NCBI GenBank assembly: GCA_965230525.1
Contig: OZ246008.1
Location: 903,251 to 967,250 of the forward strand
DNA length: 64,000 bases
Direction: 5' to 3'
Origin: Kangiellaceae bacterium
GTDB taxonomy: Bacteria; Pseudomonadota; Gammaproteobacteria; Enterobacterales; Kangiellaceae
Every line of letters begins with the position of its first letter. Position 1 is the stretch's first letter. The notes below the pieces were generated by a model. The model did no database searches. It was not told the DNA's origin and worked only from the letters and a program-made list of their open reading frames with translations. Shown here piece after piece: positions 1,527 through 35,949 of this stretch. A program made the position numbers and the translations under genes.

Positions 1527-3794
1527 ATGATTAAAAATACCCTCAAACAATCTGGGTGGTTCTATTTGTGGGTCGTTTTATCGATTGTTAGTTTATGGAT
1601 CACTGCTAATAACCGTTTTGAATACTTCGAAAGTCACAATTTAAAGCTACTCAGTCAAATGCGGCAAAGTGAAACGCTAGATCCGCATATCATTCGTTTG
1701 GTAATTGAGCAACAGTCTTCTGATGATATTGCATTCTATCAATCGCTGAAAAAGCAATTTCCGGTCGCCACCGTGATTCTTGCTAATGATTTAGCTCAGC
1801 GCACTCAGTTGATGATAAACCATCAAGTTGATTTATCTGATCGTGTGATAGCGTTATCCAAAAATACAATAACTAGCGACCCACTGACACAAGCCGATCT
1901 TGTTAGTCAATTTTTACCGACTGCAAATTCGTCACTCAGTTGGTCTACTTTGGCAAACTTAGAACTCGCAGTGCAATCCGTTCCATCGCTAAACTCAACC
2001 AGCGCTGTTTTTCGAAAGGACGATAAAATTTATCCTGGTTTATTGGTTGCGGCGTTAATTAAGTACCACAACGGCAGTGCTAAACTTTCACAAAACCTCA
2101 CCCACTTAACGCTGCAATTCGATTCGCAACGAACACAATTGTCTCAGTTAAATTTAGGACTCACCGGCAGGTTAATTAGTTTTGAAAAAAATGCGCCTTT
2201 ATTTGGTATCGAGCAATTGCAAGCAGCGATTGACGCTAAGTTTGACGGTCTTTTAATTGTTGATGATCTTTCAAGCTCTGTTGGAAAAAATCTATACAAT
2301 GCATTGCAGGGAATCCAAGCAAATGACTATTTAGTTGACAACCTATTTTGTTACTTGCTTATGTTTTTGGCTTGGGTTGTGATGAGCTTGATTATCTTTA
2401 AGTTTAATGTTCTTACCGTGGCTAGAAAAATCTTGCTAGTTTTTGCTTCAATAATTTCATTGTTGTTAATACAAATAGTGCTAAGTAAGTTTTCTATTTG
2501 GTTACCAATGACTAGTATTCTATTGTTTTCGATTTGTTCGATCCCTTTAATTTTTGGCGTTAACAAAGAAATGCAACAGAAGCAAAATATACACTCAAAT
2601 ATTAATAGTGCTGTGATCGAATCGGCGCTCTATCTGTTAAGAAATCAAAAAGCAAAAACATTATTAGATTTATTATCGAATTGTATTCCGACCAAAGCGC
2701 TCATCGATGTTTTGGTCGAGACTGCTGTGGAAGCAGAAACGCAACGCAACACCGCAGTCGCCTGCCAGCTTTATGAGTGGATTCTAACTCACGACAAAAA
2801 TCATTCTATTAGTAAACAGCGGTTGGCAGAAATTAACGCTGCCGATGAGCCCGCTGAATTAGACCAAACATTAGTGATCGAAAATGGCCAACAGTCCGTT
2901 GCTAAACCGACCAATACTAATGGCATTTTAGCCATCAAAAATTTTGGGCGATACCAAGTAGAAGGAATCATCGGGAAAGGCGCTATGGGGATGGTTTTTC
3001 AAGGTGTGGATCCCAAAATCAATCGGCATGTTGCGATTAAAACTTTACAGCTTAATGATGAACTAGATGATGAATCACTAAATGAAAGAAAGCAGCGGTT
3101 TTTTAGAGAAGCAGAAACTGCGGGTAATCTAAGTCATGCCAATATTGTTACTATCTACGATGTCGGCGAGCAGAAACACCCAAACTCAAACCAATCGCTG
3201 GGCTACATCGCAATGGATTTACTCACTGGCGCGCCGCTTTCAGAGTTTATTAAGGCGGATAAACTCCTTCCACCCCCGCTAGTCTATCAATTGATGATTC
3301 AAATGACTGACGCACTTGATTATGCGCATCGACAAAAAGTGATTCATCGAGATATTAAGCCTGCTAATATTATATTCGATGATGATTTACAACGAGGTAC
3401 CTTGACTGATTTTGGTATCGCTTATATGTCAGATCACAGTAAGACCAAAACCGGAACCATCATGGGTAGTCCCTATTACATGTCGCCCGAACAGGTTATG
3501 GGGCAAACCGTAGATGGACGATCTGATATTTTTAGCCTAGGTGTTACCTTCTATCAGTTGCTAAGTGGCCATCTTCCATTTAATGGAGAATCGATAGCCA
3601 CGGTCGCTTTTCACATTACCAAAACTAAGCACGAGTCAGTTCGAAACATGAACAAAAAACTCTATGCAAGTTCAACTAGAATTACTAATAAAGCGATGCA
3701 AAAAGATCCGGTTAAACGATACCAATCGATGCAAGAATTTCGTCAAGCATTAGTGAATGCACTTAAGAGGGACTACAAAAAGTCACCGCTATAA
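1527..3794 (+). CDS. Membrane Ser/Thr protein kinase (Hanks type) with N-terminal CHASE2-like sensor topology
   Basis: The C-terminal kinase domain carries GKGAMGMVFQG (P-loop), VAIK, HRDIKPANI, DFGIA and SPYYMSPE. The N-terminus has one TM helix, about 250 aa of predicted periplasmic sequence, then three TM helices (aa ~275-345). This is the CHASE2 layout. Confidence 0.9.
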   Translation: MIKNTLKQSGWFYLWVVLSIVSLWITANNRFEYFESHNLKLLSQMRQSETLDPHIIRLVIEQQSSDDIAFYQSLKKQFPVATVILANDLAQRTQLMINHQVDLSDRVIALSKNTITSDPLTQADLVSQFLPTANSSLSWSTLANLELAVQSVPSLNSTSAVFRKDDKIYPGLLVAALIKYHNGSAKLSQNLTHLTLQFDSQRTQLSQLNLGLTGRLISFEKNAPLFGIEQLQAAIDAKFDGLLIVDDLSSSVGKNLYNALQGIQANDYLVDNLFCYLLMFLAWVVMSLIIFKFNVLTVARKILLVFASIISLLLIQIVLSKFSIWLPMTSILLFSICSIPLIFGVNKEMQQKQNIHSNINSAVIESALYLLRNQKAKTLLDLLSNCIPTKALIDVLVETAVEAETQRNTAVACQLYEWILTHDKNHSISKQRLAEINAADEPAELDQTLVIENGQQSVAKPTNTNGILAIKNFGRYQVEGIIGKGAMGMVFQGVDPKINRHVAIKTLQLNDELDDESLNERKQRFFREAETAGNLSHANIVTIYDVGEQKHPNSNQSLGYIAMDLLTGAPLSEFIKADKLLPPPLVYQLMIQMTDALDYAHRQKVIHRDIKPANIIFDDDLQRGTLTDFGIAYMSDHSKTKTGTIMGSPYYMSPEQVMGQTVDGRSDIFSLGVTFYQLLSGHLPFNGESIATVAFHITKTKHESVRNMNKKLYASSTRITNKAMQKDPVKRYQSMQEFRQALVNALKRDYKKSPL

Positions 3795-6672: not shown

Positions 6673-7590
6673 ATGCTTTCTAAAGTTTTGCCTAAATTTG
6701 TTGTAGGTTCTTTTTCATTCTTATTGCATGTGGTTAATACCTTGTTTTGGGTGGTTCCCATTTTGGTATTCGCACTACTCAAAGTCCTATTACCGGTTCC
6801 TATGCTTCGAAAGGGGCTCGACCAGCTACTCAACGGTTGTGCTAGTTTATGGATTGGTTGCAACGGAATAATTATGCAGTCAACCAAAGCGATTGATTGG
6901 GATGTAGAAATACCAAAAGGGCTCTCTACCAAAGACTGGTATTTGGTGATGGCTAATCATCAAAGTTGGGTTGATATTTTAGTGCTTCAAAAAGTCTTTA
7001 ACGGCCAAATTCCGTTTCTCAAGTTTTTCTTAAAACAGCAACTTATTTGGGTTCCAGTATTAGGCTTGGCCTGGTGGGCCTTAGATTTTCCGTTTATGCG
7101 TCGCTACTCTAAGTCGTATATTAAGAAAAACCCGCACAAAAAAGGCAAGGATTTTGAAACCACTAAAAAAGCCTGTGAAAAGTTTAAGTCTATACCCATT
7201 TCGATAATGAACTTTTCAGAGGGTACTCGCTTTACCGAAGAAAAACACCGGCGTCAAAACTCACCCTATCAACATTTGCTCAAGCCTAAGGCTGGCGGGA
7301 TTGGCTATGTATTGACTTTGATGGGCAATGAAATCACTAAAATACTAGATGTGACTATAGACTATCCTAATCATCACTCACCAAGCTTTTGGGATTTAAT
7401 GACCGGCACTTTAGACAAAGTCGTGGTGCAAGCAACTTTGTTAGATATTCCCAGCGAAGTTCAAGGTAGTTACATTGAGAGTGCTGAGCAACGTAAAAAA
7501 GTTCAACAATGGGTCAACCAGCTGTGGACTGCCAAGGATCAAAAACTGACTGAGATTCGCCGAAGCGAAACAGCCAGCACAACAAACTAA
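6673..7590 (+). CDS. yihG: Acyltransferase, YihG-like (lysophospholipid acyltransferase family)
   Basis: NHQSWVDI (HX4D motif), FLKQQLIWVPVLGLAWWALDFPFMRRYSKSY and NFSEGTRFT closely parallel E. coli YihG. Confidence 0.8.
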   Translation: MLSKVLPKFVVGSFSFLLHVVNTLFWVVPILVFALLKVLLPVPMLRKGLDQLLNGCASLWIGCNGIIMQSTKAIDWDVEIPKGLSTKDWYLVMANHQSWVDILVLQKVFNGQIPFLKFFLKQQLIWVPVLGLAWWALDFPFMRRYSKSYIKKNPHKKGKDFETTKKACEKFKSIPISIMNFSEGTRFTEEKHRRQNSPYQHLLKPKAGGIGYVLTLMGNEITKILDVTIDYPNHHSPSFWDLMTGTLDKVVVQATLLDIPSEVQGSYIESAEQRKKVQQWVNQLWTAKDQKLTEIRRSETASTTN

Positions 7591-7615
7591 TTGATTGCTA
7601 TCTGAATAAGTTCCG

Positions 7616-7993
7616 TTACCAATAAACGGGCTTTTGCAGCGCATGAAAAAAGATTAAACCCACTGACACGAGAGCAATCAGTAACGCAACTCTTCGAGTA
7701 GCGGCTGAATTGGCTGGTTTTAATGCTATGCTGCCAGCAATAACATACCCTATCAGGAAAATGACCTTAGCGCCTAACCAACCCTGTTGAAACGGATATA
7801 GCTGTGTAACCACTGATAAATAGATGGCCGCTGCAAGTAACAAAGTGTCGTTGATATGTGGCAAAACCTTCACAGCTTTATGCTGCAATAGAGGATCGTT
7901 TTTGGACAACCACCATGCACGCAAAATAAACCCCGCAACAGATATGATCGCGGTCAAGATGTGCAGCTTTTTTACGACTAAGTAATATTCCAT
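7616..7993 (-). CDS. SirB-family small membrane protein
   Basis: 125 aa with four hydrophobic helices. The MEYYLVVKKLHILTAIISVAGFILRAWW start is typical of the SirB2/YchQ family. It overlaps the yigZ stop by 16 nt. Confidence 0.6.
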   Translation of the reverse strand: MEYYLVVKKLHILTAIISVAGFILRAWWLSKNDPLLQHKAVKVLPHINDTLLLAAAIYLSVVTQLYPFQQGWLGAKVIFLIGYVIAGSIALKPANSAATRRVALLIALVSVGLIFFHALQKPVYW

Positions 7994-8592
7994 TCTATTT
8001 GTCCTTTAAATTGATTTGCGACTAAATGCTTAAATGATTCGGCTTGCTCGACGGCAATTTCGAAAGTTGCATGTACTTTGGTTTGATAATCGAGACGTAG
8101 CTCTTGATGGGTAAAATCTTTTAGCAGATGCTGAAAGTCGTCTAGCTGAGCATAATCTAATTCGCACGCTAAACCGCAATAATGAATTTTTTGTATGACG
8201 CTAAGGCTATCCAAAGCCAATTTGGTGCCACCACCGTAGGCTCGGGCTAGGCCTCCTGTGCCCAATTTAGTGCCACCAAAATAACGTGTGCAAACCACCA
8301 CAATATCGCCAATGTGAGCATGTTGAAGTACATGCAACATAGGTTTGCCTGCGGTACCGGATGGCTCGCCATCATCGCTGCAACCAATAAGCGTTGTGGA
8401 TTGTGGATTTCCCACAATATAGGCCCAGCAGTGATGTGATGCCTCAGGAAAACGCTGATTAACTGACTTTATAAATGCTTTAGCTTGCTCAGCGCTACCC
8501 ACATTACTCACTCGAGTAATAAATTGACTGCCTTTGATCACTTCCTCAACCTTAAGTGAACTCGCAGGGACTAAGTAAGAGGCTAAACTCAT
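7978..8592 (-). CDS. yigZ: IMPACT/YigZ family protein
   Basis: Contains HHCWAYIVG...DDGEPSGTAGKPML...VVCTRYFGGTKLGTGGL motifs. It lies downstream of pepQ, as in E. coli. Confidence 0.85.
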   Translation of the reverse strand: MSLASYLVPASSLKVEEVIKGSQFITRVSNVGSAEQAKAFIKSVNQRFPEASHHCWAYIVGNPQSTTLIGCSDDGEPSGTAGKPMLHVLQHAHIGDIVVVCTRYFGGTKLGTGGLARAYGGGTKLALDSLSVIQKIHYCGLACELDYAQLDDFQHLLKDFTHQELRLDYQTKVHATFEIAVEQAESFKHLVANQFKGQIEWNIT

Positions 8593-29074: not shown

Positions 29075-30097
29075 TTGCTACAAATCAATAATCAAACACC
29101 GTTTAACGCTGAATTACACCCCTATGAAGACCTGCACGGTAGAGATTATGCAATTATCATCATTAAAGGCACCTTCAATCCCTGTGGTGACCATTTAGGA
29201 ATGACCCTTTGTGATGAGCAAGCGCCAATTCAACATGCTGATGAGTATTATGGTGAGCCGGGGCAATCCAGCATTAAATACCCCACAGATCTCGCTTTAG
29301 TTAAAAAATCCACCGATTTGATATTACTCGGGCACGGTTATGCTCCCGGTGGACGGGCCACCAATCAATTCGATGTTAGTTTATCGGCGGGTAATTTTCA
29401 GCATACCGTCAGAGTGTTTGGTAATCGCTTTTGGCAAAAAGAGGGTCTTACTTGGCAGCCTAGTCGGCCAGAAAGCCTACAAAAAATGCCGCTTACCTAT
29501 GAAAACGCCTTTGGAGGAAGTGATCCTCATGCTGATCCACAAGGCAGCGAAGCGTTCGAATATGATCCGTCTAATCCGATTGGCAAAGGTTTTATCCCTA
29601 AAAAAGCAAATCCTATCGAAGGATTGGCTTTGCCTAACCTCGAAAACCCAAATGATTTAATCGTCGATGAAGATAGCCAGCCAAAGCCCTTTGGGTTTGG
29701 AGCGATAGCTAGGGACTGGCAACCTCGGCTTACTTGGGCCGGAAGCTATGATGAAGCCTGGCAATCACAAAGAATGCCACTATTACCTTTGGACTTTGAC
29801 GCTCGTTTTTTCAATGCTGCCCATCCCAACTTATGCATCTCACCTGAACTTGTAGGTGATGAAGTGATGACGATCAAAAATGCTACTGAATCAGGCTTAC
29901 TTTCATTTCAGCTCCCTAATCAACAACTAATCGCCACCGCAAGTATGCGAGGACAACAAGCCGATTTTATAGCGAAACTCGATACGGTTGTCATTGAGCC
30001 CGACGAGAACCGAGTTATGTTGACCTGGAGAGCGGCTATCCCAATCAAACGCAAGTTTCTGTATTTAGACTCTGTCACCATTAAAAGGCGTCACTAA
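29075..30097 (+). CDS. DUF2169-domain protein (T6SS adaptor/chaperone family)
   Basis: Contains NNQTPFNAEL...DYAIIIIKGTF, DEYYGEPGQSSIKYPTDLALVK, MPLTYENAFGG, NPIGKGF, LPNLENP, PFGFGAI..W.PRLTWAGSYDEAWQSQRMPLLPLDFDARFFNAA. This is the conserved DUF2169 pattern. The start is TTG after AAGGA. Confidence 0.85.
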   Translation: MLQINNQTPFNAELHPYEDLHGRDYAIIIIKGTFNPCGDHLGMTLCDEQAPIQHADEYYGEPGQSSIKYPTDLALVKKSTDLILLGHGYAPGGRATNQFDVSLSAGNFQHTVRVFGNRFWQKEGLTWQPSRPESLQKMPLTYENAFGGSDPHADPQGSEAFEYDPSNPIGKGFIPKKANPIEGLALPNLENPNDLIVDEDSQPKPFGFGAIARDWQPRLTWAGSYDEAWQSQRMPLLPLDFDARFFNAAHPNLCISPELVGDEVMTIKNATESGLLSFQLPNQQLIATASMRGQQADFIAKLDTVVIEPDENRVMLTWRAAIPIKRKFLYLDSVTIKRRH

Positions 30098-30098
30098 A

Positions 30099-31187
30099 AT
30101 GACTCATGCTGAGACTGGAACAAATAACTCAATTGTGATTACCGCAATGGGAGCGGTTACGGCTGTGGGTGGCAATGTAGAGCAAAGTACAGCGGCAATC
30201 GCAGCTGGCATTACACCTTTTGTTGAGCACTGCTATTACCAATGTACCCCCGCGGACCCAGAATGGGACGAAGACTTACCCGCCTATGTTGCAGCTGCCC
30301 CGTTTGTTGAGTTTCATGTCGACAACCTAGAACGTTTTAATCAATTGATCATTCCCGCTTTAAAAGAGTTATTCGCACAAAGTCACATTAAAAGACAAGC
30401 GTTGTCTAAAACTGGGCTCTTGGTGGCGCTGCCAGAGGCTGAAAGTGGATTGCAAAAACTAGCACTTGACGATCTGTGGTTAACTGATGTTCGACGTCAC
30501 ATGGGGTTAGTTGGACTAAAAAATGCTCGCACTAATCGCGATGCTCATGTTGGTGTTTTTAGCGCGATAAACCAAGCCATGGAATCTTTAAAAAATGGGC
30601 AATTAGAGCAATGTATAGTGGGTGGCGTGGACAGTTACTTGCTGCAAAGTAGAATGGCCCATTTTGATAAGCTCTGGCGGTTAAAAAGTAGCCGAAATGT
30701 AGACGGGTTCATACCGGGCGAGGCCGCTACAATGTTAATGTTAGAGACCGAGCAGCATGCGCTTGCTCGAGGCGCTGAAATTTTAGCGGTAATTGGAAGT
30801 GTTGGCTTTGGTGTCGAACCTAATCACATTTACTCTGAGCGAGCGAGTAGCGGTAAAGGTTTGACTGACGCAATTCGACAAGCGCTTGCAGCCGATTCAA
30901 GTGATCAAAATTTTGCCATGATCGGCTGTGACCTTAACGGTGAGAGTTATGCAAGCCAAGAACTTGGGTTGATTGGTACACGATTAGGTGATCGGTTTGG
31001 CGCTGATACCGAAATTAGCCATCCCGCAGACAGTTGTGGTGATGTGGGTGCAGCTTCAGGCGGGTTATTGATCATCAATGCAATCGATCGAATTCAGCAA
31101 ACCGACACCAACAATCTATTATTGACCACTGCTAATGATGACGGTCGGCGCGGAGCGCTCATCATCAAAGCTCCTAGAAAGGCTTAA
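30099..31187 (+). CDS. Thiolase-fold, beta-ketoacyl-synthase-like protein lacking the Cys-His-His triad
   Basis: Colinear with KAS I/II: IVITAMGAVTAVGGNVEQSTAAIAAG, DGFIPGEAATMLMLETEQHALARGAEILAVI, DSCGDVGAASGGLL. The catalytic positions read ...RDAHVGVFSA... (no Cys), ...CDLNGES... and ...CGDVGAA... (no His). The ATG is 1 nt after the DUF2169 stop. Confidence 0.7.
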   Translation: MTHAETGTNNSIVITAMGAVTAVGGNVEQSTAAIAAGITPFVEHCYYQCTPADPEWDEDLPAYVAAAPFVEFHVDNLERFNQLIIPALKELFAQSHIKRQALSKTGLLVALPEAESGLQKLALDDLWLTDVRRHMGLVGLKNARTNRDAHVGVFSAINQAMESLKNGQLEQCIVGGVDSYLLQSRMAHFDKLWRLKSSRNVDGFIPGEAATMLMLETEQHALARGAEILAVIGSVGFGVEPNHIYSERASSGKGLTDAIRQALAADSSDQNFAMIGCDLNGESYASQELGLIGTRLGDRFGADTEISHPADSCGDVGAASGGLLIINAIDRIQQTDTNNLLLTTANDDGRRGALIIKAPRKA

Positions 31188-31234: not shown

Positions 31235-31705
31235 ATGGCTGCAACTATTAATGTAAATAATCGAACTGTTGTTCATAAATCCAGTGATGGGATTGTCACT
31301 GTTTTCCCTGATGTTTGTAAAACTCCGACTCCTGGAGGGCCGGTTCCTATCCCCTATCCCAATATTGCGATGTCTTCAGATACTGCTAAGGGGAGTAAGT
31401 CGGTCAAAATGGACGGCAACCCAATAATGCTCAAGGGATCCAATTTTAAAACCAGTACCGGCGATGAGCCAGGCTCCTTGAAAGGCGTTGTTAGTAGCAA
31501 AATTAAGGGTAAAGCGGAATTTGTTAATTATTCTTTTGATGTCAAAGTGGAAGGAAAAAACGTTCCGCGTTTAGCCGATATGATGATTCAAAATAAAGGT
31601 GGCGTTGCCAATACTGCCCCTATTCCAGAGGTTCAGCCACCTATTGTTGTGCCTCCGCCACCAAGTCCAGAAGAAAACCAAATAACCAAAATTGAGATTA
31701 TCTAA
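31235..31705 (+). CDS. DUF4150 (PAAR-like) protein with proline-rich C-terminal tail
   Basis: Contains FPDVCKTPTPGGPVPIPYPNIAMSSD..GSKSVKMDGNPIM..GSNFKTSTGDEPGS.KGVVSS...VKVEGKNVPRLADMMIQN, the DUF4150 signature. The tail is PIPEVQPPIVVPPPPSPEE. Confidence 0.85.
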   Translation: MAATINVNNRTVVHKSSDGIVTVFPDVCKTPTPGGPVPIPYPNIAMSSDTAKGSKSVKMDGNPIMLKGSNFKTSTGDEPGSLKGVVSSKIKGKAEFVNYSFDVKVEGKNVPRLADMMIQNKGGVANTAPIPEVQPPIVVPPPPSPEENQITKIEII

Positions 31706-31716
31706 AGGAGTAGAAC

Positions 31717-33207
31717 ATGGCATTGGTGCAATGGGTTAATTTGGACAAGCATAGTGACTATGCGGCTGATTCTGATATTGGAAGTATCGATCGATGTGGC
31801 GCGCTAGAAATAAAAACCGCGTTTGCTTCGGGCAGTGTGCCCCTCTCTTACAAAGTTAAAGTGTCCCCTTCGGGTTCAGATAACGTCACCTACACGACGG
31901 CAGAATTAGGACGCAATAGTAATTTCAAAATGACCAAAGGAGCGGCAGATTTAGGAACCCAATCCGAAGTGGTTATGAGTGATACTGTTAAACTTCCGGC
32001 TGCCGGTGGGAATAAATATAAACTTGAAGCAAAGGATGCGAACGGAAAGGTTGTCTCCAGTCAGGAAATAGAGGCCAAGCGAAAACTTTATTATCAGTTT
32101 ATGCACATGGAGGATTCTAACGGCAAAGTCACGCCCTATGCGCTTACTCAAATGGAAGGTCATTGTGCGAAGTATCATATTGTTTTAAGTAAAGCGGGTA
32201 CGGATAAAAAAATTCCGTTTCGCAAGTGCATCAACTCTGGTCCCGGTGGTAGGTTTACTCATGTTGGTTTTGCCGCGGACGTAAATTCTCAATACGATTT
32301 AACCGCGCCGCAAAAAAAGGTTGGCTGTGTTACGGCACTATCAAATTATATTGCCTCGTTTAAAAGCACAACTAAAACGCTCACTCATTCAATAGGTGGT
32401 CCGGCTAATCCGAAAATATCGATCACACCAAGTGTGGCAGCAGGCGCTGCTACTGCGGCAGGTATACCCGGAAAAATTACCTTAGCCGTTTTATCGGGTT
32501 ACGAGTTTTTATGGTACGGATTGGACGATGATGATGACCTGGCTAAAGTTTGGTTTATTGATGGAGCTGTGAGCTTTACTCCAAATACTTCTAGTTCTTC
32601 ACCTTCTGCTATGGCCGGTCAATCAATTCAAATTAGTCGTTCGGATGTCAGTATAGGTGGAAGCAAAAAACGAACTCATGGCGGTTATCAAGAGATAGAA
32701 GTAACCATCAATCCAGGATCTACTTTAGATAATATGATTTCGCAAACGAGTGGTACGCTAGATTTTGCTTTTGAGTTGAATCGAGTAAAAGGCTTTAGTG
32801 GTGGTTTTAGTTGGGGTGGTGCTGGATTTGCTTTAACGACTTGTTGTACTAAAGCATGGTTTGAAGATAAACAGCCATCTGCTAGTGACGTAATATGGAA
32901 TCACGAAGTAGGACATAGAATGGGTATGGTGGCATTTGGTGATAAGCCCAACGCTACTTACCCTAATCCGAAACTGCCAGATGCGCCGCCGCATTTGTAC
33001 GGTGAGAAACGTGGGGTTAATGATAAGGGGCATCAAGGTCCTCATTGCGAAGAAGGGGCTGTCACTTACAATGCAACCACAAATAGCTGGAGCGGCACGC
33101 CAGGTTGCGTGCTTTTTGGTGCGACCGGTACTTCAGCAGCCAGCTCGCCGCTCGATTATTGTAGCGACTGTACTCCGGTAGTCAGAAAATTAGATCTTTC
33201 TTTCTAA
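31717..33207 (+). CDS. Candidate cargo/effector: 496-aa protein with a single HExxH (HEVGH) motif and Cys-rich C-terminus
   Basis: AGGAG lies 6 nt upstream of the ATG, which is 11 nt after the PAAR-like stop. It contains WNHEVGHRMGM and a C-terminal 90 aa with 5 Cys (..GPHCEEG..PGCVLFG..DYCSDCTP..). I do not recognise the N-terminal ~380 aa. Confidence 0.55.
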   Translation: MALVQWVNLDKHSDYAADSDIGSIDRCGALEIKTAFASGSVPLSYKVKVSPSGSDNVTYTTAELGRNSNFKMTKGAADLGTQSEVVMSDTVKLPAAGGNKYKLEAKDANGKVVSSQEIEAKRKLYYQFMHMEDSNGKVTPYALTQMEGHCAKYHIVLSKAGTDKKIPFRKCINSGPGGRFTHVGFAADVNSQYDLTAPQKKVGCVTALSNYIASFKSTTKTLTHSIGGPANPKISITPSVAAGAATAAGIPGKITLAVLSGYEFLWYGLDDDDDLAKVWFIDGAVSFTPNTSSSSPSAMAGQSIQISRSDVSIGGSKKRTHGGYQEIEVTINPGSTLDNMISQTSGTLDFAFELNRVKGFSGGFSWGGAGFALTTCCTKAWFEDKQPSASDVIWNHEVGHRMGMVAFGDKPNATYPNPKLPDAPPHLYGEKRGVNDKGHQGPHCEEGAVTYNATTNSWSGTPGCVLFGATGTSAASSPLDYCSDCTPVVRKLDLSF

Positions 33208-33867
33208 ATGGAATTTAAGAAACATTTACCGATCATACTTTTAGCTCACTTATGCGTTATATTAATTTCGTGCAAAGCTAATACTTCCAACAAAGGAGAA
33301 AGCCTAATGGCGGACCAACTTTACCAAATACCTAAAGATTGTGATTTTAGTAAAGTGCTAAATGGAGACACCCATTCCAACGAATGTACTCCGATTCTCG
33401 ATAATAAATTCTTTAGCAAGTTTTCGGGAATTTTAATTAATGGCCCGGAGCAAGTGGTTTGGCCTAAAGATGGAAACCCTGAAGACTATCCAGTAGGGCC
33501 GTGGGGAACTTCCGAGGGACCATTCCGATTAATGCTTGCAGGGTTAGTTAGGACAGAATATAAAACCCTTGGTTTAAAGGGTGAGGCTTCGGAAGAGGTC
33601 TTGTTAGTTGCGGTTAATCAAAAAACGGCAAAAAGTTATTCAGGAAAAATGCCAAAGCCTGACGTCGATACTGCACCCGATTTTGATATGGGTATGGAAG
33701 AAATCCCGCTATCAGAAGAAGAGCAGAATAAACTAATTACCAGTTACTTTAATTTTGATCTCGTGCAAGATTTAGGTTTGCCGATTGCTAATGCCAGCTA
33801 CAATGTTTATGCAACACTCGGAGAAATGAAATCCAATTCAATCATTATTCACACCAAAGTGGAATGA
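33208..33867 (+). CDS. Island family A, copy 1: predicted lipoprotein (candidate immunity protein)
   Basis: The ATG directly abuts the upstream stop (TAAATG). It has the signal peptide plus lipobox MEFKKHLPIILLAHLCVILISC. It shares a conserved core with 34351..34911 and 35356..35949 (IP..CDFS......(E/Q)C(T/S)P, GILIN, GP(F/L)R(L/I)M(L/V)AG, (V/I)NQ(K/E)T, (Y/V)YA(T/V)LGE/A.KSN). Confidence 0.65.
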   Translation: MEFKKHLPIILLAHLCVILISCKANTSNKGESLMADQLYQIPKDCDFSKVLNGDTHSNECTPILDNKFFSKFSGILINGPEQVVWPKDGNPEDYPVGPWGTSEGPFRLMLAGLVRTEYKTLGLKGEASEEVLLVAVNQKTAKSYSGKMPKPDVDTAPDFDMGMEEIPLSEEEQNKLITSYFNFDLVQDLGLPIANASYNVYATLGEMKSNSIIIHTKVE

Positions 33868-33925
33868 TTGAAATTAGAGTTCTTAAATTTTTCGCTCAAT
33901 TATATGCTAAAAGGAACTTCGAGCC

Positions 33926-34300
33926 TTGAAAGAACATCAACAAAGTTCAAACAAAATCATTATCGAAGCTATATCGGCGATTAAAGCTGACCCCAATAAA
34001 ATAGTGATTCATGGAAAGTTTGATATCGAATATGAAGCTAGCGGTCTGTTGACTCGCGGCTCTGAAATCTTAAATCACATCATTCTCGTGGTGACTCGCT
34101 CAGGAAATTATCAATCTGTCACACCCTTTCAAGATGTTATTGCTTTTGAAGATGATGTCCAAGAAAATGATTCGGGCTGTAGTGGTGTTTTCAATATTGA
34201 TCTATTCAAAAAAATTCTCTTCGATGGGCCGGGTGACTATTACATCCTCTGTTCCATTGGTTCTGTTACTTCAAATATCTTGCACGTTAAACACAATTGA
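33926..34300 (+). CDS. Island family B, copy 1 (small all-beta-looking protein, no signal peptide)
   Basis: TTG start; the frame opens only at 33911. Clear paralog of 34939..35298 (HIILVVT, PF.D.I.FEDD.Q..(D/G).(S/G)CSG.F, DYYI(L/M)CSIG..TS.I). Confidence 0.55.
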   Translation: MKEHQQSSNKIIIEAISAIKADPNKIVIHGKFDIEYEASGLLTRGSEILNHIILVVTRSGNYQSVTPFQDVIAFEDDVQENDSGCSGVFNIDLFKKILFDGPGDYYILCSIGSVTSNILHVKHN

Positions 34301-34350
34301 TATTCAAGCAAGAATTTCGATTTATGCTTTACTAAGAGTAGTCGAAAAAT

Positions 34351-34911
34351 ATGCATAGTCGCCTTTATGAAATTCCAGAACAATGTGATTTCTCTACAGT
34401 TTGGAATAATACTGCTAACGCTAACGAATGCTCTCCAAAACTTACACCAGAATTCTTTAACCCTTTTCAAGGAATCTTAATTAATACTCCAATCACAGTG
34501 GAGCTAGATGGTAACTTAGACCTCAAAGACTTCATAGTAACACCTGCGGGTCATCGAGAAGGACCACTAAGAATCATGTTGGCAGGTTCACTTCAAGTAC
34601 CAGTCGGCACATTAAATAAAGACTGTGGATTGAATGAAAAAGTGTTGATAGTTGCTATCAATCAAAAAACTGCAGAAACGTTTAGTGGTTATATGAGTCT
34701 TTTCGGATTTAAAGTCGACCCCATTGAAATTCCGTTACCTGAAGGCGAAACAGAGGAAGATATCGCTAAAGGTGATGTTCGAGAGTTATTTAATGTTGAT
34801 TTAATAGAAAACCTAAAACTCCCAATTATGACAGCGGATTATACTGTTTACGCAGTTCTAGGCGAGTATAAGTCGAATGTGAGAGAGGTCAAAGTGCGAG
34901 TAAAGAAGTAG
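34351..34911 (+). CDS. Island family A, copy 2 (no signal peptide)
   Basis: ATG at 34351, with an in-frame stop 12 nt upstream. It is colinear with A1 from residue ~34 onward and is the most divergent of the three copies. Confidence 0.6.
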   Translation: MHSRLYEIPEQCDFSTVWNNTANANECSPKLTPEFFNPFQGILINTPITVELDGNLDLKDFIVTPAGHREGPLRIMLAGSLQVPVGTLNKDCGLNEKVLIVAINQKTAETFSGYMSLFGFKVDPIEIPLPEGETEEDIAKGDVRELFNVDLIENLKLPIMTADYTVYAVLGEYKSNVREVKVRVKK

Positions 34912-34938
34912 CCTCTTTAGTTACTGAGTCTAATAGTT

Positions 34939-35298
34939 ATGATTAAGAATAATTACTTTATAGCAATTGAAAATCCTTCAAAGACAAACAGTAAAGAAAC
35001 TTTGATGATTCAAGGACAATTCAGAGTTCCTTATCATCAATCTGGTATTACTGTGCAAGGTGCTGATATGCTAAAACACATAATATTGGTTGTCACAATG
35101 GGTGGTGCTCGTGCAGTCGTTCGCCCATTTAAGGACTATGTGATTTTTGAAGATGACATTCAAGACGATGGACAAAGTTGTAGTGGCTATTTTAAATTCA
35201 ATGCGTTTGAAAAGATATCGTTTACCGAGGGTGATCACTATTACATAATGTGTTCGATAGGAACCTTCACTTCTGATATTGTTAAAGTCTCAGTTTAA
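34939..35298 (+). CDS. Island family B, copy 2
   Basis: ATG start. Roughly half of its positions are identical to B1 by eye. Confidence 0.6.
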   Translation: MIKNNYFIAIENPSKTNSKETLMIQGQFRVPYHQSGITVQGADMLKHIILVVTMGGARAVVRPFKDYVIFEDDIQDDGQSCSGYFKFNAFEKISFTEGDHYYIMCSIGTFTSDIVKVSV

Positions 35299-35355
35299 TA
35301 CCTTGTTGCTTTTACAATCAAAACTCTACAAATAAAAATATTTTTATTCTGCGCT

Positions 35356-35949
35356 TTGTTTGCGTCAAAGGCATCAGTAGAGAAGCCGATGAAAAATGAA
35401 CATTATAAAATTCCTGAAAACTGTGATTTTAGTAAAATTTACAATGCGAATTCAGAAGAAAATCAATGCTCACCAAAACTAAACGACAAGTTCTTTAGTG
35501 AATTTTCTGGAATTCTAATTAATGCACCCAAAATAGTAGAATGGCCAAAGAATGTTCATTTAAAGGATTATTATCCAAGGCCATCAGGCACATCTTATGG
35601 GCCGCTAAGATTGATGGTCGCAGGTTTGATCCGGACGCAATATAAAACTCTTGGTCTAAATGGTGATACTAGCGAAGCCGTAGCATTGGTGGCTATTAAC
35701 CAAGAGACCAAAGCTATACTCTCAGCAAGAATGCCTAGACCAGATTTTGATTTACCACCAGATTTTGAAAACGAAAGTCCTGAAAGAACTCGAAATGAAG
35801 CCGAATTAAACGCACTAATTACAAATCACTTTAATTTTGATTTAGTTCATGACTTAGGATTACCGATAGCGGAAGCTAATTATCAGGTTTATGCTACTCT
35901 TGGAGCAATGAAGTCAAATGTGGTGGAAGTTAAAACTGTTATCAAATAA
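35356..35949 (+). CDS. Island family A, copy 3 (start uncertain: TTG 35356 or ATG 35389)
   Basis: Closest paralog of A1 (e.g. FFS.FSGILIN.P..V.WPK, RTxYKTLGL.G..SE.V.LVA(V/I)NQ, FNFDLV.DLGLPIA.A.Y.VYATLG.MKSN). Confidence 0.6.
   Translation: MFASKASVEKPMKNEHYKIPENCDFSKIYNANSEENQCSPKLNDKFFSEFSGILINAPKIVEWPKNVHLKDYYPRPSGTSYGPLRLMVAGLIRTQYKTLGLNGDTSEAVALVAINQETKAILSARMPRPDFDLPPDFENESPERTRNEAELNALITNHFNFDLVHDLGLPIAEANYQVYATLGAMKSNVVEVKTVIK

What the first reader, a model, noticed from the sequence alone, without database searches (positions are those of the whole stretch)
30099..31187. Catalytically dead ketosynthase-like protein sandwiched between a T6SS adaptor gene and a PAAR-like gene
Seen in the sequence: the 362-aa product is colinear with KAS I/II enzymes. 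The matching segments are IVITAMGAVTAVGGNVEQSTAAIAAG, ERFNQLIIPALKELF, QLEQCIVGGVDS, DGFIPGEAATMLMLETEQHALARGAEILAVI and DSCGDVGAASGGLLI.

Where FabF/FabB carry the acyl-Cys (..ACxSG..) it reads RDAHVGVFSA. The two catalytic His positions read CDLNGES and SCGDVGA.

Established knowledge: the Cys-His-His triad is essential for condensing activity.

Inference: this is a thiolase-fold pseudoenzyme recruited as a structural partner, such as a co-chaperone, cargo-loading platform or lipid/acyl binder, in a PAAR-dependent delivery module. I am not aware of a described T6SS accessory family of this fold. The 1-nt gap to the DUF2169 stop suggests stoichiometric co-translation.
Basis: partly seen in the sequence, partly recalled or inferred. 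Interest (0 to 1): 0.75.

Follow-up and report, generated by a model that had tools for sequence, protein, structure and literature searches.

The report
Dead ketosynthase-like T6SS co-chaperone (TvpD)
The gene encodes a protein shaped like a fatty-acid ketosynthase that has lost all its catalytic residues; it belongs to an already described family (PRK06147/TvpD) thought to help load a PAAR-like spike tip and its toxin onto the type VI secretion system, so the reading is correct but not new.

Summary
ORF 30099..31187 (+) encodes 362 aa. It starts 1 nt after the stop of a DUF2169 gene and lies 47 nt upstream of a DUF4150/PIPY PAAR-like gene.

The AlphaFold2 model (pLDDT 96) matches FabF/FabB (Foldseek E 1e-24, TM about 0.8, 15-19% identity). 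The Cys-His-His triad is absent. The Cys163 elbow reads A149-H150, His303 is N280, His340 is D315 and Lys335 is A310. The same holds in 112 homologues and in 80 species-representative genomes. The replacements themselves are conserved.

In those genomes DUF2169 is the upstream neighbour in 70 of 79 cases and a PAAR-like gene the downstream neighbour in 74 of 76. VgrG and DUF6484 usually lie further upstream.

The family is already described. It is PRK06147, a proposed T6SS adaptor (Liu 2020). It is the "thiolase-like" gene of DUF2169 synteny type A (Sachar 2025). It is TvpD/PA0098, the predicted PAAR co-chaperone of Class II Tvp systems (Monlezun 2026).

The local features are an orphan module with no vgrG or DUF6484 in 64 kb, a short stand-alone PAAR-like protein, a separate uncharacterised 496-aa HExxH protein, and an array of immunity-like paralogues.

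The parts
29075..30097 (+). DUF2169 protein (TvpA-type PAAR-like/PIPY chaperone), 340 aa, single domain
   Evidence: Pfam PF09937 E 9.9e-93, residues 21-319. It is the immediate upstream neighbour of the KS-like gene in 70 of 79 related genomes. TTG start with an AAGGAA motif 9 nt upstream.
30099..31187 (+). KS-like pseudoenzyme of the PRK06147/TvpD family, 362 aa; the finding itself
   Evidence: The fold is FabF/FabB. The Cys-His-His triad is replaced by (A/G)-(H/R), N and D. NCBIfam NF004798 scores 227 bits over the full length.
31235..31705 (+). Short stand-alone PAAR-like (DUF4150/PIPY) protein, 156 aa. It carries the VPIPYPN motif and a conserved Pro-rich C-terminal tail that ends in a short hydrophobic strand.
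   Evidence: Pfam PF13665 E 1.6e-42. Alignment of the short PAAR-like proteins of this clade.
31717..33207 (+). 496-aa uncharacterised protein with an invariant HExxH motif (H396-E397-x-x-H400). Putative cargo effector of the module.
   Evidence: No Pfam or NCBIfam hit. 89 homologues, none carrying a functional name (those named are 'hypothetical' or 'uncharacterized'). Invariant H396, E397, H400, H439, H443, C444, C464, C482 and C485. Weak profile hits to the reprolysin Zn-site helix. Confident AF2 model with no credible PDB fold match. It co-occurs with the KS-like gene only in the closest clade.
33208..33867 (+). 219-aa protein with a lipoprotein-type signal (..LISC). Putative periplasmic immunity protein.
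   Evidence: Sequence. A homologue follows the E496 homologue in related loci.
33926..34300 (+). 124-aa ORF, paralogue of 34939..35298. Unknown partner of the immunity-like genes.
   Evidence: blastp between s124 and s119: 46% identity, E 7e-31.
34351..34911 (+). 186-aa paralogue of the 219-aa immunity-like protein. No signal peptide in the ORF as called.
   Evidence: blastp 42% identity, E 5e-45.
34939..35298 (+). 119-aa paralogue of the 124-aa ORF
35356..35949 (+). 197-aa paralogue of the 219-aa immunity-like protein
   Evidence: blastp 56% identity, E 3e-77.

Best explanation
The 362-aa protein is a member of the PRK06147/TvpD family. It is a FabF/FabB-fold protein that has lost condensing chemistry. 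It most likely acts with the DUF2169 protein encoded just upstream (TvpA) as a non-secreted co-chaperone. The pair would hold and shield the DUF4150/PIPY PAAR-like protein encoded just downstream until it is mounted on a VgrG spike.

In this genome the genes form an orphan auxiliary module: tvpA, tvpD, a PAAR-like gene, a 496-aa HExxH cargo gene and immunity-like genes. The VgrG and the DUF6484 (TvpC) template must be encoded elsewhere.

Shown here: the fold, the loss of the triad, family membership and the near-obligate gene order. Inferred from the literature and not tested here: physical binding to the PAAR-like and DUF2169 proteins, and a requirement for effector delivery.
For: Fold and dead site.
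- AF2 model pLDDT 96; Foldseek best hits are FabF/FabB at TM about 0.8.
- Cys163 aligns to A149/H150, His303 to N280, His340 to D315 and Lys335 to A310. The FabF NSFGFGG motif reads TANDDGRRG, and the FabF 367-392 hairpin is deleted.
- The same pattern holds in 112 homologues and across 80 genomes from several phyla.

Family.
- The best NCBIfam model is PRK06147, full length, E 3e-67.
- Homologues in canonical VgrG-DUF6484-DUF2169 contexts score the same, 196-234 bits.

Context.
- DUF2169 is immediately upstream in 70 of 79 loci. A PAAR-like gene is immediately downstream in 74 of 76. Both are present in 67 of 76.
- VgrG lies within 5 kb upstream in 49 of 66 loci. DUF6484 lies within 3.5 kb in 51 of 66.
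- Pfam confirmed Hcp, VgrG, DUF6484, ClpV and HEAT in L004 and L030.
- An annotated Rhizobium plasmid carries tssK-tssM-tagF, then DUF2169, '3-oxoacyl-ACP synthase' and DUF4150.

Literature.
- Liu 2020, PMC7714669: 74.4% of PRK06147 genes are adjacent to DUF2169.
- Sachar 2025, PMC11883445: synteny type A; DUF2169 binds PIPY domains and is required for delivery.
- Monlezun 2026, PMC13373197: an AlphaFold model in which PA0097 and PA0098 form a groove around the Tse7 PAAR domain; PA0098 is named TvpD.
Against: - No direct experiment on any TvpD protein was found in the papers read. The co-chaperone role rests on AlphaFold models and operon-level genetics, and polar effects were acknowledged.
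- The window lacks the Class II hallmarks VgrG, DUF6484 and the HEAT/ARM protein.
- The PAAR-like protein here is not fused to a toxin, unlike the Class II prototype.
- The residues that replace the triad are themselves highly conserved: N280 in 109 of 112, D315 in 99 of 112. That could point to a retained pocket function rather than pure scaffolding.
- The NCBIfam score of 227 bits is below the curated equivalog cutoff of 342.
Confidence: 0.8

Rival explanations
1. TvpD here acts mainly as a cargo-specific adaptor. It would bridge the separate 496-aa HExxH protein to the short PAAR-like tip, rather than (or in addition to) chaperoning the PAAR-like domain.
For: - TvpD sequence similarity tracks effector type. 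Most of the closest loci (13 of L001-L013 and L016) carry an E496 homologue, and all but L002 a short 139-169-aa PAAR-like protein nearby (in L002 both lie upstream of the KS-like gene), although their lineages are very different (Gammaproteobacteria, Acidobacteriota, Manganitrophaceae, Smithella, Myxococcota).
- No locus more distant than these carries E496, and most of them have toxin-fused PAAR-like proteins of 260-390 aa.
- Liu 2020 noted that PRK06147 genes lie closer to effectors than DUF2169 genes do.
- E496 has a conserved N-terminal QWVNL motif, and the PAAR-like protein has a conserved C-terminal tail. Either could be a docking element.
Against: - Co-inheritance of a mobile module explains the correlation equally well.
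- In most family members there is no separate cargo, because the toxin is fused to the PAAR-like domain.
- No interaction data exist.
Confidence: 0.2
2. TvpD keeps a functional pocket. In this reading it is a non-canonical enzyme or small-molecule/acyl binder that uses the conserved His150, Asn280, Glu282, Tyr284, Asp315 and Cys277/Cys312 cluster. It might, for example, modify or sense the spike tip.
For: The substituted positions and their neighbours are the most conserved part of the protein. N280 is in 109 of 112, G281 in 112, E282 in 110, Y284 in 111, G314 in 112, D315 in 99 and C277 in 96 of 112, against a mean column identity of 46%.
Against: - No nucleophile sits at the elbow, and Lys335 and the NSFGFGG motif (which includes the gatekeeper Phe) are lost.
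- The cap hairpin that closes the acyl pocket in FabF is deleted.
- No ACP, acyltransferase or lipid genes recur in the surveyed neighbourhoods.
- Conservation is equally well explained by a protein-binding groove or by core packing.
Confidence: 0.07
3. It is an ordinary fatty-acid or polyketide ketosynthase that merely happens to lie next to T6SS genes, as the RefSeq name '3-oxoacyl-ACP synthase' implies.
For: Pfam PF00109 and the fabF models hit the protein. RefSeq annotates homologues as 3-oxoacyl-ACP synthase.
Against: - The triad is absent in every family member examined.
- The gene order with DUF2169 and DUF4150 is near-obligate.
- The protein is about 50 aa shorter than FabF, with deletions in pocket and cap segments.
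Confidence: 0.01

Closest known systems
TvpD / PA0098 (PRK06147) of the P. aeruginosa vgrG1b-tse7 cluster; Class II Tvp systems (Monlezun, Earl & Coulthurst, EMBO J 2026, PMC13373197)
   Same: - Same NCBIfam/CDD model (PRK06147) as best full-length hit.
- Same position between the DUF2169 (TvpA) gene and a DUF4150 PAAR-like gene.
- Same size class, about 350-360 aa.
- Relatives of the window protein sit in VgrG-DUF6484-DUF2169-TvpD-PAAR clusters.
   Different: - The window module has no vgrG, DUF6484 (TvpC) or HEAT/ARM gene within 64 kb.
- The PAAR-like protein is a short stand-alone protein followed by a separate 496-aa cargo, whereas Tse7 is a PAAR-toxin fusion.
- The score against PRK06147 is below the equivalog cutoff.
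'Thiolase-like' gene of DUF2169 synteny type A (Sachar et al., JBC 2025, PMC11883445), including the Proteus mirabilis pef operon (Alteri 2017, PMC5714391)
   Same: The gene order DUF2169, thiolase-like, DUF4150 is the defining feature of synteny type A. It is met here and in 67 of 76 related loci.
   Different: Type A also includes DUF6484 and an armadillo/HEAT-like protein, both absent from this window. Equating pefC with the thiolase-like gene is my inference from gene order and was not checked.
PRK06147 as a candidate fourth T6SS adaptor class (Liu et al., CSBJ 2020, PMC7714669)
   Same: Same family and the same genomic-context argument. Liu et al. report adjacency to DUF2169 for 74% of members and a PAAR gene downstream for 52%. 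My survey gives higher figures.
   Different: Liu et al. treated the protein as a predicted 3-oxoacyl-ACP synthase and did not address the active site in the passages read.
TsmK (AsaB), the pseudo-ketoacyl synthase of the Acinetobacter T6SS (PMC10564176)
   Same: A KS-fold protein without the catalytic triad, co-opted as a T6SS accessory.
   Different: - TsmK is encoded in the core cluster and stabilises the TssM/TssL membrane complex.
- It is largely restricted to Acinetobacter and keeps one His.
- It has no link to DUF2169 or PAAR-like genes.
- Sequence relatedness to TvpD was not tested.
FabF/FabB (KAS II/I)
   Same: Same thiolase-type two-lobed fold (TM about 0.8). Colinear motifs: VVVTGxG, GGxE/DS, DGFxxGEG and GxxGAAG.
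   Different: - 15-19% identity.
- Cys163, His303, His340, Lys335 and the NSFGFGG motif are all replaced.
- About 50 residues are deleted, including the 367-392 hairpin.
- The Pfam C-terminal KS domain PF02801 is not detected.

Membership tests
TvpD / PRK06147 T6SS accessory family | Full-length match to the PRK06147 model (NCBIfam NF004798) | tested here: inconclusive
   It is the best hit: E 3.3e-67, 227 bits, residues 10-359 against model positions 4-344 of 349. The score is below the curated equivalog cutoff of 342. Ten homologues, nine of them from canonical VgrG-DUF6484-DUF2169 clusters, score the same, 196-234 bits. The cutoff therefore appears narrow rather than the protein atypical.
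TvpD / PRK06147 T6SS accessory family | Gene lies immediately downstream of a DUF2169 (tvpA) gene and immediately upstream of a DUF4150 PAAR-like gene | tested here: met
   for the window. In related loci: 70 of 79, 74 of 76, and both in 67 of 76.
Class II Tvp system / DUF2169 synteny type A | DUF6484 (short TvpC) and vgrG upstream, with an ARM/HEAT-like gene in the cluster | tested here: not met
   HMMs built from related loci find no VgrG, DUF6484, HEAT, Hcp or ClpV ORF anywhere in the 64-kb window. These genes are present in close relatives L003-L005, L007 and L009. They may lie elsewhere in the genome.
Class II Tvp system | PAAR-like domain fused to a specialised toxin domain | tested here: not met
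   The PAAR-like protein is 156 aa, with the domain at residues 20-122 and only a Pro-rich tail beyond it. A separate 496-aa gene follows.
TvpD / PRK06147 T6SS accessory family | Binds the PAAR-like domain together with TvpA and is needed for effector delivery | not testable with these tools
   No multimer modelling or experiments were available. In the literature this rests on AlphaFold models.
KAS I/II condensing enzymes (FabB/FabF) | Thiolase-type KS fold | tested here: met
   Foldseek E 1e-24, TMq 0.75-0.83.
KAS I/II condensing enzymes (FabB/FabF) | Cys-His-His catalytic triad, plus Lys335 and the NSFGFGG motif that includes the gatekeeper Phe | tested here: not met
   A149/H150, N280, D315 and A310; NSFGFGG reads TANDDGRRG. 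The triad is absent family-wide.
TsmK pseudo-ketoacyl synthase (Acinetobacter) | Encoded in the T6SS core cluster and interacts with TssM/TssL | not tested
   No TsmK sequence was available. The genomic context here is different.

The most novel reading that the evidence does not exclude
The former KS active-site cleft of TvpD may be the working surface of the protein. It has been opened by deletion of the cap hairpin and is lined by the family-invariant NGESY...E and GDVGAAS motifs. It would either clamp the PIPY/PAAR-like tip or bind a small ligand. In the clade represented here, TvpD would additionally recruit a separate HExxH effector that belongs to a previously undescribed family and has no PDB-matching fold.
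Probability: 0.2. Interest if true: 0.55.

Novelty: new member of a known kind. Interest (0 to 1): 0.25.

Why it matters
The finding adds little conceptually, because T6SS specialists already list this family as TvpD/PRK06147.

Three points are useful.
- The complete, family-wide loss of Cys-His-His, with conserved replacement residues, is now documented. Term searches found no explicit statement of it in the papers I could read. It shows that the RefSeq name '3-oxoacyl-ACP synthase' is a functional misannotation.
- The locus shows that a TvpA-TvpD pair can travel as an orphan module with a short PAAR-like protein and a separate cargo. This blurs the published rule that Class II goes with toxin-fused PAAR.
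- The 496-aa HExxH protein is a candidate new effector family, together with its immunity array.

Tried and rejected
- Placing Cys163 by MAFFT --add gave K141. I rejected this because the N-terminal middle of that alignment is visibly misregistered. hhalign, phmmer and the model's secondary structure agree on A149/H150.
- My first crude greedy gene calling lost 12 loci to over-extended ORFs. I replaced it with counts based on domain envelopes.
- Foldseek of the 496-aa model against PDB gave no credible match, TMq 0.16 or less. Only the HExxH motif and weak reprolysin-helix hits support a metallopeptidase reading.
- The look-up of encoding contigs on P0001, to name the source genome, returned nothing. 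The closest genome is a Kangiellaceae MAG at 81% identity.
- The promoter and terminator scan of the module was at background level and uninformative.
- I considered a relocated nucleophile. C277 and C312/C313 lie next to the former His positions, but C277 aligns to a buried strand residue (FabF Val) and column 313 is variable. This was not pursued further because model coordinates could not be inspected.
- I ran no further search on fetching PA0098 itself.

Full report
**Observation.** The ORF at 30099..31187 (+) is real: ATG start, 362 aa. The upstream ORF 29075..30097 is a single-domain DUF2169 protein (Pfam E 9.9e-93). The downstream ORF 31235..31705 is a Tox-PAAR-like/DUF4150 protein (E 1.6e-42) carrying the VPIPYPN 'PIPY' motif. 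The DUF2169 stop codon TAA occupies 30095-30097. One A follows, then the ATG at 30099.

**Ketosynthase homology.**
- Pfam PF00109: E 7.6e-10, residues 154-221 only.
- fabF TIGR03150: E 9e-18.
- phmmer against PDB FabF chains: E 1e-8.
- hhalign of a 112-sequence family profile against E. coli FabF: probability 97.5% over residues 7-265.
- AlphaFold2 with that alignment: pLDDT 96, pTM 0.94.
- Foldseek against PDB: only FabF/FabB/KS chains at the top, E about 1e-24, TMq 0.75-0.83, 15-19% identity.

**Active site.**
- His303 of FabF aligns with N280 (CDLNGES against NAHGTS).
- His340 aligns with D315 (CGDVGAASG against TGHLLGAAG).
- Lys335 aligns with A310.
- These three placements agree between phmmer and MAFFT.
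- The Cys163 elbow is placed at H150 by phmmer, at A149 by hhalign and at K141 by MAFFT. The MAFFT alignment is visibly misregistered in that region.
- In the model a strand at 143-146 is followed by a helix starting at 149. This is the KS nucleophile-elbow geometry and favours A149 or H150.
- No method places a Cys there.
- The C-terminal NSFGFGG motif reads TANDDGRRG.
- FabF residues 367-392, a hairpin that caps the pocket, are deleted.

**Family-wide pattern.**
- In 112 homologues, column 149 is G in 103 and A in 7.
- Column 150 is H in 73 and R in 25.
- Column 280 is N in 109.
- Column 315 is D in 99, E in 6 and N in 5.
- Column 310 is A in 107.
- No sequence has Cys at column 149 or 150.
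- In 80 species-representative genomes spanning Pseudomonadota, Myxococcota, Acidobacteriota, Nitrospirota, Planctomycetota and others, none has His at 280 or 315. Only two have a stray Cys near the elbow.
- By the canonical criterion the protein is a pseudoenzyme. The replacement residues and their neighbours (NGESY...E, PAD-C-x-GDVGAASG) are nevertheless the most conserved part of the protein.

**What it is.** The best NCBIfam model by far is NF004798 'PRK06147': E 3.3e-67, 227 bits, full length. The next best is fabF at 64 bits. The score is below the curated equivalog cutoff of 342. However, ten homologues, nine of them from canonical T6SS clusters, score 196-234 bits. The cutoff is therefore narrow and the window protein is a typical member of the broader family.

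**Genomic context.** A scan of one genome per species returned 80 loci. I counted neighbours using domain envelopes.
- DUF2169 lies immediately upstream on the same strand in 70 of 79 evaluable loci.
- A PAAR-like gene lies immediately downstream in 74 of 76.
- Both are present in 67 of 76.
- VgrG lies within 5 kb upstream in 49 of 66 loci.
- A short DUF6484 protein lies within 3.5 kb in 51 of 66.
- Pfam confirmed Hcp, VgrG, DUF6484, ClpV and a HEAT-repeat protein of about 415 aa in L004 and L030.
- An annotated Rhizobium plasmid shows tssK-tssM-tagF followed by DUF2169, '3-oxoacyl-ACP synthase' and DUF4150.
- The refuting scenario, ordinary lipid or polyketide enzymes with no link to DUF2169/PAAR, is excluded.

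**Comparison with the literature.** The family is already described.
- Liu et al. 2020 (PMC7714669) singled out PRK06147 as a probable fourth class of T6SS adaptor from gene context. They report 74.4% of members adjacent to DUF2169.
- Sachar et al. 2025 (PMC11883445) defined DUF2169 'synteny type A' by the thiolase-like gene downstream of DUF2169, together with DUF6484 and an ARM-like protein. They showed that DUF2169 binds PIPY domains and is needed for delivery.
- Monlezun et al. 2026 (PMC13373197) modelled PA0096, PA0097, PA0098 and the Tse7 PAAR domain. They proposed that PA0097 and PA0098 form a groove protecting the PAAR domain, and they named PA0098 TvpD, the signature of Class II Tvp systems.
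- A different KS-fold pseudoenzyme, TsmK, is a membrane-complex accessory in Acinetobacter.
- Term searches for 'catalytic', 'ketoacyl' and 'thiolase' in the TvpD paper found nothing. Explicit documentation of the triad loss may therefore be a small addition.

**Mechanism.**
- Shown here: the fold, the dead site, family membership and the near-obligate gene order.
- Inferred: TvpD acts as a cytoplasmic, non-secreted co-chaperone. Together with TvpA it would shield the PAAR-like tip before it is handed to VgrG.
- The tight gene spacing is conserved in related loci, with ATGA overlaps or gaps of a few nt. This is compatible with translational coupling.
- I speculate that the former active-site cleft, uncovered by the hairpin deletion, is the binding groove.

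**What is particular to this window.**
- No VgrG, DUF6484, HEAT, Hcp or ClpV ORF occurs in the 64 kb. The same is true around the closest genome, a Kangiellaceae MAG (L001, 81% identity). This is an orphan auxiliary module, set among DAHP synthase, patatin, DUF4440 and peptidase M90 genes.
- The closest clade (L001-L013, L016) differs from the Class II prototype. Most of its loci carry a short PAAR-like protein of 139-169 aa. In 12 of the 14 it lies directly downstream of the KS-like gene.
- That protein has a conserved Pro-rich tail. In most of these loci it is followed by a homologue of the 496-aa protein and a homologue of the 219-aa protein.
- More distant relatives have toxin-fused PAAR-like proteins of 260-390 aa.
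- The clade's members come from very different phyla. This suggests the five-gene module moves as a unit.

**The 496-aa protein and the downstream array.**
- The protein has no Pfam or NCBIfam hit.
- It has 89 homologues, none carrying a functional name.
- H396-E397-x-x-H400 is invariant, as are further His and Cys residues.
- Profile searches give only weak matches to the reprolysin Zn-site helix.
- The AF2 model is confident (pLDDT 92.7) but has no credible PDB neighbour.
- The next gene encodes a 219-aa protein with a lipoprotein-type signal.
- Two paralogues of that protein (42-56% identity) follow. They are interleaved with a pair of small paralogous ORFs.
- GC content falls to 0.34-0.38 over this stretch.
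- This looks like an effector followed by an immunity array, but that is inference.

**Verdict.** The functional interpretation is supported and agrees with published proposals. The novelty claim is not supported. The protein is a new member of a known kind. The side leads are modest: the HExxH cargo family, and an orphan Class-II-like module with a split PAAR and effector.

Noticed in passing
window 31717-33207 (+): 496-aa protein directly after the PAAR-like gene. It has an invariant HExxH motif (H396, E397, H400), conserved H439, H443, C444, C464, C482 and C485, and a conserved N-terminal QWVNL. There is no Pfam or NCBIfam hit. None of the 89 homologues carries a functional name. The AF2 model is confident (pLDDT 92.7) but has no credible PDB fold match. 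It is a candidate new metallopeptidase-like T6SS cargo effector family.
   Followed up: partly
window 33208-35949 (+): Array of three paralogous immunity-like genes of 219, 186 and 197 aa (42-56% identity). Only the first has a lipoprotein-type signal. They are interleaved with two small paralogous ORFs of 124 and 119 aa (46% identity). GC content drops to 0.34-0.38 here, against 0.44-0.46 in the tvpA-tvpD-effector part.
   Followed up: partly
window 31235-31705 (+) and short PAAR-like ORFs in L001-L016: The short stand-alone PAAR-like proteins of this clade share a C-terminal extension beyond the DUF4150 domain. It consists of NTPP(M/F)PEVQPP, an acidic stretch and a short terminal hydrophobic strand. 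It may be a docking element for the separate effector.
   Followed up: no
L003-L006 and L002 versus L017-L078: The HEAT/ARM-repeat protein of about 415 aa (synteny type A) sits upstream, between DUF6484 and DUF2169, in part of the E496 clade (L002-L006). In the rest of that clade and in most other loci it sits several genes downstream of the PAAR-like gene.
   Followed up: no
L004 14145-16091: A second cassette follows the first: an identical-length PAAR-like gene, a truncated E496 homologue (245 aa) and an I219 homologue. This looks like tandem duplication or diversification of the cargo cassette.
   Followed up: no
L081 (NZ_CP140855.1 Rhizobium plasmid) 6998-8020, and other PLSDB hits: RefSeq names TvpD-family proteins '3-oxoacyl-ACP synthase' although the whole family lacks the catalytic triad. 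The NCBIfam equivalog NF004798 carries the same enzyme name. Its cutoff of 342 bits excludes all eleven family members tested here (the window protein and ten homologues, 196-234 bits).
   Followed up: partly
L037, L038, L047 (Myxococcales MAGs), L079, L069: In a minority of loci the KS-like gene has no adjacent DUF2169. Some have the order DUF6484, KS-like, PAAR-like. This agrees with Liu 2020's remark that some clusters carry PRK06147 without another adaptor.
   Followed up: no
window 1527-3794 (+): 755-aa protein with a C-terminal Ser/Thr protein kinase domain (Pfam Pkinase E 3.5e-48). It appears unrelated to the module.
   Followed up: no
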